64,000 nt of DNA, taken from assembly GCA_023898465.1 (NCBI GenBank), contig CP060223.1:768001-832000 (forward strand), written 5' to 3'. Within the stretch, counting starts at the first letter, position 1. Each line of letters begins with the position of its first letter. Positions 3,096-50,556 of the stretch are shown piece by piece. Both the position numbers and the translations under genes were made by a program. Under the pieces are notes generated by a model. That model was not told the DNA's origin. It worked only from the letters and a program-made list of their open reading frames with translations, and did not search any database. This DNA is from Candidatus Nomurabacteria bacterium. GTDB taxonomy: Bacteria > Patescibacteriota > Patescibacteriia > HK-STAS-PATE-3.

Positions 3096-3217
3096 ACGGT
3101 ATATATACTACACTAAAAGGCGATTTTTTATTTCAAAGCCTATTTGACACTCCAAAAAATGGGCAGTAGAGTGGACAAGCGATTCCACCACATCTAGCCG
3201 AAAGTAAGGAGGGCAAG

Positions 3218-3523
3218 ATGTCCTTGGTCGTTGTAACACATGATGGTAGCCTGCCATGCAACCGTGGAGGCACGGGTAGGCGTGTTGGCTACTTCTCGCC
3301 TGAATCGCGGATGTATTTCCCTCTGACCGGGGGCAGTGTCTACATCCCGATTCCTCCGCCACCGCCCAAACCTCCAAACTACTTCGAACTTCCGAGAACC
3401 ACCTGGCGTGACCGCTGCATCGAGTGTAATGGTCACACGAGCTGGAAGAGGAAGAAACTCGAAGGCGGCGTGCGTGAGGTCAAGGTCTGCGAAGAGTGTG
3501 GCAAGCTGATGCGTCCGTACTAG
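3218..3523 (+). CDS. small zinc-ribbon protein (CxxC-x17-CxxC), hypothetical
   Basis: GC-rich ORF preceded by an AAGGAGG Shine-Dalgarno; RCIECNGH...VCEECGK four-Cys ribbon; proline run PIPPPPPKPP. Confidence 0.4.
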   Translation: MSLVVVTHDGSLPCNRGGTGRRVGYFSPESRMYFPLTGGSVYIPIPPPPPKPPNYFELPRTTWRDRCIECNGHTSWKRKKLEGGVREVKVCEECGKLMRPY

Positions 3524-3535
3524 AGCGTCCGTGGA

Positions 3536-3567
3536 CCGCTTCTCAATCTGAGAGGCGGTCTTTTTTC
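3536..3567 (+). terminator. intrinsic terminator / REP-like hairpin (CCGCTTCTC..GAGAGGCGG + T-run)
   Basis: Stem CCGCUUCUC/GAGAGGCGG followed by UCUUUUUU, then TTGACA; near-identical to the unit at 4047-4087. Confidence 0.5.
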
Positions 3568-3643
3568 TTGACAGTGCAGCGTATTGTCGTTAAGGTGCTG
3601 GGTCGGAAACTGGACATTCACAAACGCAATGAAGGAGGGACTG

Positions 3644-4035
3644 TGTCATACGATCCAAACGCTTTTTTCCCGCCCTACATGAATTCGACCAACGAGGGTA
3701 ACCAGCATAGCGCCGGCATGCACGTGGTCGGGCTGCAGTTCTTCTTGGACGGCCTGATCATCGGCGGCAAGATCAACGCGCCACTCATCCCGATCACCGG
3801 AATGACTGACGAGGCCACGGCGAACGCGGTGAAAGCGCTCCAGCGCGAGCTCGGCATGAGCGACGTTGATGGCAACTTCGGCCAGGGTACCAGGGAAGCC
3901 CTGCTCCGTGCCACCAGCTTCAACTTCAACACGATCCCTGGATCGATCCGTACCATCCAGGGAATCTGGATCGACCCGGACGGAAATCTCAAGCCTTGGC
4001 CCCTGGCGTTCACCGACGATCTGCCCGGCGACTAG
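3644..4035 (+). CDS. peptidoglycan-binding (PG_binding_1) domain protein
   Basis: GAAGGAGGG then GTG at 3644 (ATG at 3679 is an alternative start). Motif TGMTDEATANAVKALQRELGMSDVDGNFGQGTREAL is typical of PG_binding_1. Confidence 0.5.
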
Positions 4036-4046
4036 GACCCACCCGC

Positions 4047-4084
4047 GCCGCCTCTTCTTTCACGGAGAGGCGGTCTTTTCTTTT
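4047..4084 (+). terminator. intrinsic terminator / REP-like hairpin, second copy
   Basis: CCGCCTCTTC...GAGAGGCGG followed by TCTTTTCTTTT; 21/24 nt identical to 3550-3573. Confidence 0.5.
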
Positions 4085-4110
4085 GACCTCGCAGCATCTT
4101 GGATGTATGT
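4082..4110 (+). promoter_or_regulatory. sigma70-like promoter upstream of the transposase (TTGACC-17-TATGTT)
   Basis: -35 TTGACC at 4082-4087, 17-nt spacer, -10 TATGTT at 4105-4110; the transposase start is about 37 nt downstream. Confidence 0.4.
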
Positions 4111-4146
4111 TACACACAGACAAAGGTGGCGCCTTAGGGTTACCTT

Positions 4147-4722
4147 TTGACCCAGCGCAGAATTTATCAAAACACATACCCATACCATCTCACCACGGTA
4201 ACGAAAAACCGACGGTGGGCATTTCGAGATGTGAAACTAGCATGGAAATTGCACCAGGCAATTCTTGGCGCGTGTTTTGTTAAAGGTTACACCGCGCTGG
4301 CATTTTGCATATTACCGGACCATATACATTTGTTGGTTTGGAAGCATATCCCAGCGCGGGTAGGAGAACCCACGCTGGGCCTGGATGAAATACAAACACA
4401 ATTATTATTCCCCGAAGCCCAGCGCGCGTTCTCTAACGTGCGCGATAACAACCATGATGACATTTCATACTTAATGAAATCAATAAAAGGCACCTTTGCT
4501 CGATCAATTTCCTCCGGCCCCATCTGGCAACCCAGCTTCAATTCCCGCATCGTCGACTCTGATCAACGCCTCTACAACACACTGCAGTATATTCAATATA
4601 ATTATCGTAAACATAAACTACCCGCACACTATGGCCAAGCACCATATACCTTTCTTAATATCCCAAAAAGCATTTACAACATTGACCAAAACCGGTTTTT
4701 CTCGTACGATGGCAGAGATTGA
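4147..4722 (+). CDS. IS200-like / REP-associated tyrosine transposase (HuH Y1 transposase, RAYT-like)
   Basis: HuH motif LPDHIHLLV; downstream Tyr-containing helix LQYIQYNYRKHKL resembles the YIxxNPxK helix of TnpA_IS200/RAYT; 191 aa, a typical size. Confidence 0.65.
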   Translation: MTQRRIYQNTYPYHLTTVTKNRRWAFRDVKLAWKLHQAILGACFVKGYTALAFCILPDHIHLLVWKHIPARVGEPTLGLDEIQTQLLFPEAQRAFSNVRDNNHDDISYLMKSIKGTFARSISSGPIWQPSFNSRIVDSDQRLYNTLQYIQYNYRKHKLPAHYGQAPYTFLNIPKSIYNIDQNRFFSYDGRD

Positions 4723-6303
4723 TTGGACTTATGTATGCCGGCACCTCGCGCCAAAAAGACCACAAAGAAAAACCCGCCAAAGCAAGCGTCTGAAAAAATA
4801 GCAGAGGCTCAAATTATCATACCTGAGGCATCACCAGCGATAGAGATACCCAAGACTGCAACTCCACACTTCTTTGGATGGAAATTTTTTGTTGTGCTGG
4901 GAATTATCACTGGACTTTCCATGGGCTTTGCTACTTTTTCACGTGTCATTGATCCTCCAAATACCAATGGCGCAGTCGGCACCGAGCAACTCTCCCTACT
5001 CCAACACATTAATCAGCTGGTGGAGAATCAAAACAGACCTTTGCAAGGTGAGTCACGCGACCGGGTGAATATCCTCCTGCTGGGTATTGGCGGCGAAGGA
5101 CACGAGGGCGCCCTTTTAGCCGATACTATCATCCTGGCCAGTCTCCAACCCTCAACTGGAAAAATTGCACTGCTCTCTATCCCTCGTGACTTCTATGTTC
5201 CTATCCCGGGATATGATTGGCGCAAAATTAACAACGCAAATGCTTTTGGAGAAGTAGACGACTACCCGGGCGGTGGTGAACGCTTAACCGCTGATGTGCT
5301 CGAAGATATCTTAGATGTTGATATTCCTTATACTGCGAGAATCGATTTCAACGGCTTCATTCAAATGGTGGATAATCTCGGCGGCATAAGTGTTGATGTG
5401 GAAAAAGGCTTTGTCGACACACGATACCCAACCGAGAACTATGGGTATCAAACCATTCGCTTCGATGCCGGTCGTCAGACCATGGACGGCGAAACTGCAT
5501 TGAAGTTTGTCCGTTCGCGTAAAAGCACTTCTGACTTTGATCGATCGCGACGCCAACAACTCGTTTTACTTGCCCTCCGACAAAAGGCCCTCAACTTCGG
5601 CACTCTGATAAACCCTAGCCGCATATCGGACGTCCTCGGCAGTCTTTCAAGCAATGCACACACAAATATGGAACTATGGGAAATCCTGCGTCTCGCTGAA
5701 CTGGTTGAAGACGCTGACACCACAAACATAATCAATGTCATCCTGGATAGCAGCGCCGACAGTCCGCTTATGGATGATCGCACAACTGTTGACAATGCCT
5801 ACATCGTCCGACCAAGAAAAGGTTGGGATGACTGGTCAGAGCTCCAAGATATTGCCAACAACATCTTTCAACGGGAGGGTGAAGCACAACCCTTAACTGC
5901 TTCCGTGGTCGTACAAAACGGCACTCGTACCGTGGGTCTGGCCAGTGAAACTGCAGACATACTGGAGAGCTACGGACTCGAGGTTATCGATATCGGGAAC
6001 ACAAGCGTCCGTGGTTATACGCAAACCTATATTTATGATATTAGTAATGGTGAAAAGGCTATGGCATTAGCAGCACTGAGACAGGCCCTACCTTTTGCTC
6101 ATGTGTACTCTAAGACCCCGCTCTATCTCAACCCCGACGCACTACTGACCACAGACCTCAGCGGCCGAATTACCGAGATAGCAGTCGAATTACAACAAGA
6201 AACCCATCCTGACTTTGTCGTTATCCTAGGCGACGATACTGATCCTGATGTACTCTTATCTCACAGCAAGACAAGTAGCTCCTCACTGATAACCAGTCGA
6301 TAG
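4723..6303 (+). CDS. LytR-CpsA-Psr (LCP) family cell-wall polymer ligase
   Basis: N-terminal TM; LCP core RVNILLLGIGGEG...ADTIILAS...LSIPRDFYVPIPG...TARIDFNGFIQMVDNLGGISVDV...ETALKFVRSRK; LytR_C-like C-terminus. Start is TTG at 4723 or ATG at 4735. Confidence 0.8.
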   Translation: MDLCMPAPRAKKTTKKNPPKQASEKIAEAQIIIPEASPAIEIPKTATPHFFGWKFFVVLGIITGLSMGFATFSRVIDPPNTNGAVGTEQLSLLQHINQLVENQNRPLQGESRDRVNILLLGIGGEGHEGALLADTIILASLQPSTGKIALLSIPRDFYVPIPGYDWRKINNANAFGEVDDYPGGGERLTADVLEDILDVDIPYTARIDFNGFIQMVDNLGGISVDVEKGFVDTRYPTENYGYQTIRFDAGRQTMDGETALKFVRSRKSTSDFDRSRRQQLVLLALRQKALNFGTLINPSRISDVLGSLSSNAHTNMELWEILRLAELVEDADTTNIINVILDSSADSPLMDDRTTVDNAYIVRPRKGWDDWSELQDIANNIFQREGEAQPLTASVVVQNGTRTVGLASETADILESYGLEVIDIGNTSVRGYTQTYIYDISNGEKAMALAALRQALPFAHVYSKTPLYLNPDALLTTDLSGRITEIAVELQQETHPDFVVILGDDTDPDVLLSHSKTSSSSLITSR

Positions 6304-8868: not shown

Positions 8869-8956
8869 GCTAGAGCGTGGCGGAAAGGCGAAGGACTTTC
8901 ACCAACTCACTGATCAAGACCAGCGTGTCCTCGGGGACGCCTTTCCAGAACAGATG

Positions 8957-9028
8957 AGGCGGGTCAAGGATTTGAACCTCGGAATCGCGGATTTGAAGAC
9001 CGCTGCCTTACCACTTGGCTAACCCGCC
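8957..9028 (-). tRNA. tRNA with apparent UCA anticodon (Trp-like anticodon arm; would decode UGA/UGG)
   Basis: Acceptor GGCGGGT/ACCCGCC, anticodon arm GCGGU-CUUCAAA-UCCGC (compare canonical Trp CCGGU-CUCCAAA-ACCGG), T-arm CGAGGTTCAAATCCTTG. Genes in the window use TGA as a stop, so the anticodon assignment needs tRNAscan-SE. Confidence 0.5.
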
Positions 9029-9050
9029 TTTCAACCTATAAGTTAGAGAG

Positions 9051-9124
9051 GCGCCCTGGAAGGAATTGAACCTCCGACATCTGGGTCCATAGCCCAGCGC
9101 TCTTCCGACTGAGCTACAGGGCAC
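9051..9124 (-). tRNA. tRNA-His-like (G-1:C73 present) with an AUG rather than GUG anticodon triplet
   Basis: 8-bp acceptor including G-1 paired to C73 (a His identity element), D-arm GCTCAGTCGGAAGAGC, anticodon arm CUGGG-CUAUGGA-CCCAG, T-loop GGTTCAATTCC. A34 is unusual and may be a variant or sequence error. Confidence 0.5.
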
Positions 9125-50211: not shown

Positions 50212-50556
50212 GGTACAAAACTAACGTAAGAAGGTATCACTTTACGCGACTTTTGTCAATGCAAACACAGCCCGGGAGACATACTCCAAGGCTGTGTTAC
50301 CTGCTAACAGCTCAAACGTGATCAGTACAACGAATCGACTAACTACTTCGTCATAAATGTCCTCTTCTTTGAAGAAGGACGACGAAGGGTAGTTTACTAC
50401 CATCTGATGCTGAGCAACTGCCTATCACTCGGACAATCAATTGATTTGCCCGAATGGGCAGTCGGACAGACATCACGACCTACTAGGTCTCACATACTGC
50501 ACGATAGTGCAAATATATGTAGAGCCATCGTACCTTACGGCACGAAGATTCTCCCT

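What the first reader, a model, noticed from the sequence alone, without database searches (positions are those of the whole stretch)
3536..4722. IS200/RAYT-like HuH transposase preceded by duplicated REP-like hairpin-promoter units
The 24-nt unit GAGAGGCGGTCTTTT(T)CTT(T)TGAC(A/C) occurs twice (3550-3573 and 4065-4087). Each is the 3' arm of a GC hairpin and each is followed by a promoter-like -35/-10 pair. The second copy sits immediately upstream of an ORF with the HuH motif (HIHLLV) and a conserved Tyr helix. REP-associated tyrosine transposases are known to be flanked by, and to mobilise, such palindromic units. The tnpA stop abuts the start of the LCP gene with no spacer.
Basis: partly seen in the sequence, partly recalled or inferred. 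Interest (0 to 1): 0.5.

Follow-up and report, generated by a model that had tools for sequence, protein, structure and literature searches.

The report
Domesticated RAYT gene behind twin terminators
A single-copy relative of the REP-associated tyrosine transposases in a Nomurabacteria genome sits behind two near-identical terminator-plus-promoter hairpins that most likely belong to a small foreign two-gene insert, while the palindromes typical of its family lie in frame inside the gene itself, a feature already described for this enzyme class.

Summary
GAGAGGCGGTCTTTT occurs exactly twice in 64 kb (3550, 4065). Each copy is the 3' arm plus T-tail of a strong hairpin placed 10-12 nt after a stop codon, and each is followed by TTGAC(A/C). 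ORF 4147-4722 passes Pfam Y1_Tnp. Its best NCBIfam and PDB matches are REP-associated tyrosine transposase (TnpA_REP), not IS200.

The two units look like intrinsic terminators fused to promoters. They bound a high-GC two-gene insert (ORF1, ORF2) that is absent from the closest relative, where the same ECF sigma gene lies directly next to the Y1 gene. An ORF2 homologue in an unrelated contig is also flanked by its own duplicated terminator. No further copy exists in the window, and the units resemble no hairpin associated with Y1 homologues.

The family-typical palindromes are two in-frame hairpins inside the gene (4350-4379, 4422-4443), between the HuH and Tyr motifs. Relatives carry 0-3 such hairpins with compensatory changes. 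Some relatives also carry copies flanking the gene or elsewhere in intergenic DNA. In-frame REP insertion is already published for TnpA_Y1 subclass 2.4. This is a new member of a known kind. The source genome outside the window could not be scanned.

The parts
3144..3172 (+). Promoter-like site upstream of ORF1 (TTGACA-17-TAGAGT). It is preceded by AAAAGGCGATTTTTTATTT (3118-3136), a weak third look-alike of the repeated unit.
   Evidence: 10/12 match; alignments
3218..3523 (+). ORF1, 101 aa, with C-terminal CxxC...CxxC. It has no family match. It is the first gene of the high-GC island.
   Evidence: GC 0.57 and GC3 0.65; present with ORF2 in near-identical contig L192
3533..3561 (+). Hairpin 1, an intrinsic-terminator-like stem-loop 10 nt after the ORF1 stop, followed by a T-rich tail.
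   Evidence: 13 pairs; -22.0 kcal/mol, z -3.73
3550..3573 (+). Repeat unit copy 1: GAGAGGCGGTCTTTTTTCTTGACA (3' arm + T-tail + -35).
3569..3597 (+). Putative ORF2 promoter, TTGACA-17-TAAGGT. It falls below the scan threshold. The ORF2 homologue in L193 has TTGACA-17-TAAGCT.
3643..4035 (+). ORF2, 130 aa (GTG start after GAAGGAGG), with a PG_binding_1 domain. It is the second gene of the high-GC island.
   Evidence: 29.2 bits, cut-off 23; GC3 0.81; homologues P0004 and P0005
4047..4074 (+). Hairpin 2, an intrinsic-terminator-like stem-loop 12 nt after the ORF2 stop, followed by a T-rich tail.
   Evidence: 11 pairs; -20.4 kcal/mol, z -4.17
4065..4088 (+). Repeat unit copy 2: GAGAGGCGGTCTTTTCTTTTGACC.
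4083..4111 (+). Promoter-like site of the Y1 gene (TTGACC-17-TATGTT). The 5' UTR downstream of it is homologous to that of L038.
4147..4722 (+). Y1 HuH gene of the TnpA_REP/RAYT type, 191 aa, TTG start, TGA stop. HuH at 4321-4329, catalytic-position Tyr148 at 4588-4590, WQ at residues 127-128.
   Evidence: single copy in the window
4350..4379 (+). Intragenic palindrome hp1, CCCAGCGCGGGT-AGGAGA-ACCCACGCTGGG, in frame (PARVGEPTLG). It has the same stem as the L039 palindrome but is read in another frame.
   Evidence: -21.4 kcal/mol
4422..4443 (+). Intragenic palindrome hp2, GCGCGCGTT-CTCT-AACGTGCGC, in frame (QRAFSNVR). It is positionally conserved across the subfamily.
4735..6303 (+). LCP (LytR-CpsA-Psr) gene, given for context. 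The longest ORF starts at TTG 4723, in the same frame as the Y1 gene and separated from it by a single TGA.

Best explanation
The locus holds three separate things. (1) A single-copy, vertically inherited Y1 HuH gene of the TnpA_REP/RAYT class (4147-4722) heads a tightly packed co-directional gene string (LCP, der, pth). It carries two in-frame REP-like palindromes in the surface loop between the HuH strand and the next helix. This is the arrangement published for TnpA_Y1 subclass 2.4. By analogy, the enzyme binds and cuts hairpinned single-stranded DNA of that palindrome family. That activity is inferred, not shown. (2) About 900 bp of high-GC foreign DNA (ORF1 and ORF2, roughly 3180-4080) has been inserted between the ECF sigma gene and the Y1 gene. 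(3) The duplicated 24-nt units are the 3' halves of two rho-independent terminators, one ending each island gene. Each is fused to the -35 box of the next promoter. They act as terminator-promoter insulators, so that ORF1, ORF2 and the Y1 string are separate transcription units. Their identity comes from a local duplication or gene conversion within the island, not from transposition of a REP family.
For: Identity of the Y1 gene. It scores Pfam Y1_Tnp 40.4 bits against a cut-off of 23. The best NCBIfam model is REP_Tyr_transpos at 64 bits, against IS200 at 25 bits. The best solved structure is E. coli TnpA_REP 4ER8 (E 3e-9), against IS200-type TnpA at about 5e-4. There is one copy in 64 kb; the weak second hit is SufC.

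Vertical inheritance. In L038 the Y1 protein is 61% identical and the divergent ECF sigma is 74% identical, and only about 150 bp separates the two genes. L117 and L118 are 61% identical and both lie upstream of trmD.

The island. GC is 0.58, and GC3 is 0.65 (ORF1) and 0.81 (ORF2), against 0.44-0.48 for Y1, LCP and der.

The terminators. The hairpins start 10-12 nt after stop codons, fold at -20 to -22 kcal/mol and carry T-tails. There are only two copies in 64 kb. The ORF2 homologue in L193 (39% identity) sits in its own high-GC two-gene island. It is flanked by a different duplicated hairpin with a T-run, 37/39 identical, and no Y1 gene is visible on that 2.5-kb contig. The units show no significant similarity to the upstream regions of 10 Y1 homologues.

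The intragenic palindromes. Relatives carry 0-3 of them, always at the same protein site. On the type A alignment, 9 of 14 pairs show changes on both sides and 84% of cells are paired, against 25-50% when the partner is slid. On type B, 4 of 10 pairs do, with 90% paired. The same stem is read in different frames in the window and in L039. Extragenic copies flank the gene in L117, L114 and L039 and occur 8 kb away in L041. Of 77 family representatives, 62 have inserts of 16-107 aa, against a basal spacing of 7-8 aa. The feature is published (PMC6006769).
Against: The remaining ~94% of the 1.08-Mb source contig could not be scanned, so a low-density dispersed family of the GAGAGGCGG hairpin is not excluded. 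The 15-nt identity covers only the 3' arm and tail, while the left arms and loops differ. That pattern is not fully explained by a simple duplication. Adjacency to a Y1 gene and direct orientation are also what IS200/IS605-type ends look like. Termination and promoter activity rest on consensus scans and folding, not on transcript data, and promoter-like sites are not enriched in the region. The protein is below the NCBIfam REP_Tyr_transpos cut-off (64 against 80), and its Tyr motif is YIQYNY rather than Y---NP.
Confidence: 0.65

Rival explanations
1. The two units are REP-like or IS200-type hairpins recognised by the adjacent Y1 enzyme, either as a dispersed REP family or as left and right ends of a palindrome-bounded passenger element carrying ORF2.
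For: A genuine TnpA_REP-like gene lies immediately downstream. tnpA_REP genes are typically flanked by REPs (PMC6006769). Relatives do have a hairpin directly upstream of the -35 box of the Y1 promoter (L039, L114, L117, L040). The hairpins are in direct orientation, as are IS200/IS605 ends (the author's knowledge of the family, not tested here).
Against: There are only two copies in 64 kb, both behind stop codons with T-tails, and none downstream of the gene. The sequence is unrelated to the palindrome family inside and around Y1 homologues. In relatives, intragenic and extragenic copies match within a genome; here the intragenic hairpins do not match the units. The closest relative lacks the units. 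The ORF2 homologue shows the same duplicated-terminator layout with no Y1 gene in view. There is no GT[AG]G foot.
Confidence: 0.12
2. The direct repeats are junction scars of a cassette-type insertion. ORF2, or ORF1 plus ORF2, was captured at a pre-existing terminator-promoter site by a recombination that duplicated the target. The units would then be attL/attR-like, and their function as terminators would be secondary.
For: The units bracket ORF2 exactly (3550 and 4065). The island has foreign composition and is absent in L038. An independent ORF2 homologue is bracketed by its own 37/39-identical repeat.
Against: No recombinase or integrase lies in the island. The repeat includes functional-looking terminator and -35 parts, which a plain duplication of a regulatory module explains equally well. 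The junctions could not be mapped, because L038 is too diverged in the intergenic DNA. There are only two examples.
Confidence: 0.15
3. The repeat is a chance resemblance between two unrelated GC-rich terminators, or an assembly artefact.
For: Terminators share general features: a GC stem and a T-tail.
Against: A 15-nt exact match occurring twice within 515 bp was never reached in shuffles, and similarity extends into the promoter spacer. An independent ENA contig (L192) reproduces ORF1, unit 1 and ORF2 almost base for base.
Confidence: 0.03

Closest known systems
TnpA_Y1 subclass 2.4 (Quentin et al. 2018, PMC6006769), equal to RAYT group 4 of Bertels et al. 2017
   Same: It has an [ND]H[IFV]H HuH motif, a WQ motif and a length of about 190 aa. 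It has a variable insert between beta3 and alphaC made of REP palindromes that keep the reading frame. Copy number is low and the gene is vertically inherited. Many close family representatives have the YIxNNP Tyr motif.
   Different: The window protein and about half of its close relatives have YIxxNY instead of Y---NP. The palindromes lack the GT[AG]G foot; their feet are CACAG...CTGTG or CCCAG...CTGGG. The host is a CPR/Patescibacteria genome, a group not named in that paper's taxonomic summary. No extragenic copy was found in the 64 kb examined.
E. coli TnpA_REP / REPtron (PDB 4ER8)
   Same: It is the best solved-structure match (E 3e-9), and the HuH and Tyr-helix regions align. It is a single-copy gene associated with palindromes.
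   Different: The E. coli gene is flanked on both sides by inverted REP pairs with a GTAG foot, and REPs are dispersed by the hundreds. Here the gene has no cognate-looking flanking hairpins, and the palindromes lie inside the ORF.
IS200/IS605-family TnpA and their subterminal hairpins
   Same: It has the Y1 HuH fold family, and a hairpin directly upstream of the gene's promoter. For IS200 the left-end hairpin is also reported to act as a terminator (the author's knowledge, not checked here).
   Different: NCBIfam IS200 scores 25 bits against a cut-off of 55. The Tyr motif is not Y---Q. There is no right-end hairpin and no tnpB. The gene is single-copy at a syntenic chromosomal site.
Rho-independent terminators fused to downstream promoters
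   Same: There is a GC-rich stem, a T-tail and a position 10-12 nt after a stop codon, and a -35 box follows within 8-10 nt.
   Different: The two copies share a 15-nt exact block and 21/24 identity, which generic terminators do not.
Palindromic elements inserted in frame into protein genes (for example Rickettsia palindromic elements; recalled from memory, not checked)
   Same: Palindromic DNA is tolerated in frame in surface loops of proteins.
   Different: Here the host gene is the enzyme class thought to act on such palindromes, and the insertions always lie at one site.

Membership tests
Y1 HuH transposase superfamily (Pfam PF01797 Y1_Tnp) | Profile match above the curated cut-off | tested here: met
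   40.4 bits against 23; residues 11-65 match profile positions 5-58. The C-terminal half aligns to 4ER8.
Y1 HuH transposase superfamily | HuH motif and catalytic Tyr on the following helix | tested here: met
   H59-I-H61 and Y148 in YIQYNYRK are invariant in the subfamily alignment. Y148 aligns with YIYINPVKH of TnpA_REP.
REP-associated tyrosine transposase (NCBIfam NF047646 equivalog) | Score at or above the curated cut-off | tested here: not met
   64 bits against a cut-off of 80. It is the best-scoring model but stays below threshold, split by the insert into two stretches.
RAYT / TnpA_REP (class 2 of Quentin et al.) | Tyr motif Y---NP | tested here: not met
   The window has YIQYNY. Among 77 family representatives, 30 have NY and 24 have NP.
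RAYT / TnpA_REP | Gene flanked by cognate REP hairpins (REPtron) | tested here: not met
   No family-type hairpin lies outside the ORF in the window. The feature is met in relatives L117, L114 and L039.
RAYT / TnpA_REP | Cognate palindromes dispersed in many intergenic copies in the genome | not testable with these tools
   Only 64 kb of the 1.08-Mb contig is available, and the source genome is absent from the scanned collections. There are 0 extragenic copies in the window. L041 has one intergenic doublet 8 kb away.
RAYT / TnpA_REP | Low copy number and vertical inheritance | tested here: met
   There is one copy in 64 kb. Synteny with the ECF sigma gene holds at 61% protein identity. L117 and L118 are both upstream of trmD.
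TnpA_Y1 subclass 2.4 | REP palindromes inserted in frame between the HuH and Tyr motifs | tested here: met
   hp1 is at 4350-4379 and hp2 at 4422-4443. Covariation is shown. The published description was read.
TnpA_Y1 subclass 2.4 | Canonical or double-foot REP with GT[AG]G at the foot | tested here: not met
   The feet read CACAG/CTGTG or CCCAG/CTGGG. No GT[AG]G lies 5' of the stems.
IS200/IS605 insertion sequence | TnpA_IS200 equivalog score, Y---Q motif, left and right subterminal hairpins, multiple copies | tested here: not met
   25 bits against a cut-off of 55. The motif is YIQYN. No hairpin lies downstream, since the stop abuts LCP. The gene is single-copy.
REP family (for the GAGAGGCGG units) | Many dispersed copies; whole hairpin conserved; often inverted pairs | tested here: not met
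   There are two copies, 515 bp apart and in direct orientation. The left arms and loops differ. This was tested on the 64-kb window only.
Intrinsic terminator (for the units) | GC-rich stem-loop followed by a T-run, downstream of a co-directional stop codon | tested here: met
   Actual termination was not measured.

The most novel reading that the evidence does not exclude
The in-frame palindromes are not merely tolerated REP insertions. They are kept by selection as the enzyme's own protected substrate or cis-regulatory hairpins. In a reduced ~1-Mb CPR genome with few or no extragenic copies, the gene and its palindromes would then form one self-contained unit. Pairing is preserved through synonymous and even non-synonymous compensatory changes, and through different reading frames.
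Probability: 0.15. Interest if true: 0.6.

Novelty: new member of a known kind. Interest (0 to 1): 0.3.

Why it matters
The result corrects an attractive but probably wrong link between two look-alike hairpins and a neighbouring transposase-like gene. The hairpins are best read as ordinary transcription signals of a small foreign insert. It also places a Nomurabacteria gene in the RAYT/TnpA_REP class whose members carry REP palindromes in frame. It adds covariation and reading-frame evidence that those palindromes evolve as nucleic-acid elements. If a whole-genome scan showed that the only copies lie inside the gene, this lineage would be a compact case for asking what domesticated RAYTs do when there is no REP population to maintain.

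Tried and rejected
- **Exact-sequence look-ups.** Look-ups of the Y1 protein found no contig, although an identical NCBI protein exists.
- **Source genome.** It is not in genome contigs; the best hit there is 39% identical.
- **Viral contigs.** The 15-mer gave 37 single scattered matches, which I judged to be about chance level (my own rough estimate; no expectation was computed). The family palindrome gave none.
- **Second Y1 copy.** A weak tblastn hit at about 36.8 kb is SufC.
- **Unit 2 versus the L118 upstream region.** The apparent resemblance reduced to a 14-nt match, 2 of 200 shuffles reaching it among 20 comparisons, and was judged chance.
- **ORF1 versus L193.** ORF1 has no similarity to the first gene of the L193 island. 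PHROGs gave nothing useful for ORF1 and only PG-binding matches to endolysins for ORF2.
- **IS200 membership.** Rejected.
- **Structure prediction.** Not run, because only three admissible sequences were available for the alignment and the sequence-level matches already settle the fold family.

Full report
**Observation**

GAGAGGCGGTCTTTT occurs exactly at 3550 and 4065 and nowhere else in the 64-kb window, even with two mismatches allowed. The expected number was 0.14, and none of 100 shuffles gave two matches. The 24-nt units are 21/24 identical, and weaker similarity runs on through the following promoter spacer.

Each unit is the 3' arm of a hairpin. The hairpins are at 3533-3561 (13 pairs) and 4047-4074 (11 pairs), and each is followed by a T-rich tail. 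Their folding energies are -22.0 and -20.4 kcal/mol, with z-scores of -3.7 and -4.2. Each is followed by TTGAC(A/C) and a -10-like hexamer 17 nt later. Only the second promoter reaches the scan threshold, and promoter-like sites are not enriched in the region.

The hairpins begin 10 and 12 nt after the stop codons of two small ORFs on the same strand. ORF1 (3218-3523) matches no family. ORF2 (3643-4035) has a PG_binding_1 domain.

**The ORF**

The ORF 4147-4722 (TTG start, 191 aa) passes Pfam Y1_Tnp at 40.4 bits, against a cut-off of 23. Its best NCBIfam model is REP-associated tyrosine transposase at 64 bits, which is below the cut-off of 80. IS200 scores 25 bits against a cut-off of 55. A profile of the subfamily finds E. 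coli TnpA_REP (4ER8) as the best solved relative (E 3e-9), ahead of IS200-type TnpA proteins at about 5e-4.

The motifs HIH (59-61), WQ (127-128) and Tyr148 in YIQYNYRK are conserved in relatives. An identical protein is annotated as a transposase of a Candidatus Nomurabacteria MAG on a 1,082,586-bp contig. There is only one copy in the window, and a weak second hit is SufC.

**Context and inheritance**

The closest relative with DNA available is L038 (protein 61% identical). It has the same ECF sigma gene (74% identical) lying divergently next to the Y1 gene, with only about 150 bp between them. Its 5' UTR is homologous to the window's, but it has no ORF1, no ORF2 and no unit hairpins.

In the window, about 900 bp has been added at that point. 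The added DNA has GC 0.58, with GC3 of 0.65 (ORF1) and 0.81 (ORF2). Y1, LCP and der have GC3 of 0.44-0.48. A near-identical ENA contig (L192) reproduces ORF1, unit 1 and ORF2.

A second pair of relatives, L117 and L118, are 61% identical to each other, and both sit immediately upstream of trmD. The gene therefore behaves as a vertically inherited, single-copy gene. This is how RAYTs are described in the abstract of PMC5581495. Downstream, Y1, LCP, der and pth are packed with gaps of 0-2 nt or short overlaps.

**What the units are**

An independent observation bears on the units. The only distant ORF2 homologue with context is in L193 (39% identity). It also sits in a high-GC two-gene island. 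It is also flanked by two directly repeated hairpins with T-runs. These have a quite different sequence, AACTCACAAACGCG.A.GCGGGTGTGAGTTCTTTTTT, and are 37/39 identical to each other. The first is followed by TTGACA-17-TAAGCT. No Y1 gene is visible on that 2.5-kb contig. A duplicated terminator therefore goes with this kind of small-gene island, not with the Y1 gene.

The window units have no significant similarity to the upstream regions of ten Y1 homologues. Taken together with their position behind stop codons, their T-tails, their direct orientation and the presence of only two copies, I read them as terminator-promoter modules. Their similarity would come from a local duplication or gene conversion. 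That origin is inferred.

**What the family's palindromes are**

- hp1, 4350-4379: CCCAGCGCGGGT-AGGAGA-ACCCACGCTGGG, -21.4 kcal/mol.
- hp2, 4422-4443: GCGCGCGTT-CTCT-AACGTGCGC, -14.4 kcal/mol.

Both lie in a 42-residue stretch between HLL and ISYLMKSIK. Relatives L117 and L118 have only eight residues there. Other relatives carry one to three hairpins at that site, with stems of 9-14 bp and mostly 4-nt loops, always in frame.

On an alignment of eleven type A hairpins, 84% of cells pair, against 25-50% when the partner is slid. Nine of 14 pairs show changes on both sides. Seven type B hairpins give 90% pairing, and four of ten pairs co-vary. The changes include synonymous pairs (CAA...CGT against CAG...CGC). 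In L116 there is a non-synonymous pair (Q to E together with C to S). The stem of hp1 is the same as that of the L039 palindrome but is read in another frame (PARVGEPTLG against SQRGFRNPRC). These are therefore nucleic-acid elements, not protein motifs.

A covariance model built from them finds copies outside genes in several relatives:
- on both sides of the insert-free gene in L117 (1449-1483 and 1999-2033);
- upstream and downstream in L114;
- upstream in L039, identical to its intragenic copy;
- as an intergenic doublet 8 kb away in L041.

Within a genome, the intragenic and extragenic copies resemble each other more than copies in different genomes do. This is what is expected of a REP family evolving together with its enzyme. 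In the window the model finds only hp1 and hp2, even with filters off. The next hit is a weak intergenic hairpin at 50263-50299 (E 0.33).

**Comparison with what is known**

Quentin et al. 2018 (PMC6006769) describe exactly this for their TnpA_Y1 subclass 2.4, which equals Bertels group 4. REP sequences are inserted within tnpA_REP genes between the HuH and Tyr motifs without breaking the frame. The subclass motifs are NH[IFV]H, WQ and YIxNNP, with a median length of 194 aa.

A full-library profile search finds 46 clusters at E <= 1e-30 and 213 at E <= 1e-10. Of 77 representatives with both landmarks, 62 carry inserts of 16-107 aa at this site. Their peptides recur in forms such as RTLEKVRC, QRGLSSPRC, RRLPSRR and ARVSVPAVG. 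I read these as the same kind of palindrome translated in different frames, by analogy with the window/L039 case; their DNA was not examined. The Tyr motif is NY in 30 and NP in 24.

The window gene is thus a new member, or at most a mild variant, of a known kind. It differs in four ways: the NY motif, the lack of a GT[AG]G foot, the CPR host, and the absence of cognate flanking hairpins.

**Limits**

It could be done only on the 64-kb window, because the source genome is not in the searchable collections. Termination, promoter activity and enzyme activity are all inferred.

**Verdict**

The Y1/RAYT call is right. The REP reading of the duplicated units is probably wrong. The real REP-like elements lie inside the gene. 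Interest is modest.

Noticed in passing
window 3180-4080; L193:1100-2180: A high-GC two-gene island (ORF1 plus the PG_binding_1 protein ORF2; GC3 0.65 and 0.81 against about 0.46 for the neighbours) is inserted between the ECF sigma gene and the Y1 gene. A 39%-identical ORF2 homologue in an unrelated contig sits in a similar high-GC two-gene island with its own duplicated hairpin/T-run terminator. This may be a recurrent small mobile cassette of unknown mechanism.
   Followed up: partly
window 8956-9028 (-): A 73-nt class-I tRNA has a clean anticodon loop CU-UCA-AA, which would read UGA. It lies in a cluster of seven tRNA genes. ARAGORN labels it tRNA-SeC, but it is too short for that. Its acceptor stem and U73 look like tRNA-Cys (recalled from memory, unverified). 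TGA is nevertheless a normal stop here (12 of 42 long ORFs).
   Followed up: partly
window 4720-4735: The Y1 ORF and the longest LCP ORF are in the same reading frame, separated by a single TGA. Reading through that one codon would give a 718-residue Y1-LCP fusion. This is probably coincidence, but it is notable given the UCA-anticodon tRNA 4 kb away.
   Followed up: no
window 9050-9123 (-): ARAGORN reports a tRNA-His with anticodon ATG at position 34. This is an unusual call that may be a register error caused by the extra 5' G of tRNA-His.
   Followed up: no
window 50263-50299: An intergenic hairpin, AACACAGCCCGGGAG-ACATA-CTCCAAGGCTGTGTT, has the CACAG/CTGTG feet of the Y1-associated palindrome family. 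It is a weak match to the model (14.3 bits, E 0.33). It could be a decayed extragenic copy.
   Followed up: partly
window 3118-3149: Upstream of ORF1, AAAAGGCGATTTTTTATTT...TTGACA resembles a third, degenerate copy of the unit (AGGCGGTCTTTT...TTGACA) without a convincing hairpin.
   Followed up: partly
L041:7757-7776 and L039:16-35: The 20-nt non-coding string AAACCCGCGCTGTGTGTGGT is identical in two distantly related contigs. In L041 it is a half-palindrome just after the Y1 stop. In L039 it is the right arm plus flank of the upstream palindrome. The conserved element therefore extends beyond the stem.
   Followed up: partly
L042:4909-5371; L043:5280-5732: The Wirthbacteria homologue is split by a frameshift between the HuH region and the LSDLMHSIK helix and has no insert. 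A Kerfeldbacteria homologue lacks the N-terminal HuH half. These are likely pseudogenes or assembly errors.
   Followed up: no
L193:2357-2473 (-): Next to the ORF2-homologue island lies what my own by-eye translation reads as an enolase-like fragment ([33 protein letters not shown]) ending in a premature stop (no translate or family tool was run on it). This would suggest that the island's insertion or a rearrangement truncated eno.
   Followed up: no
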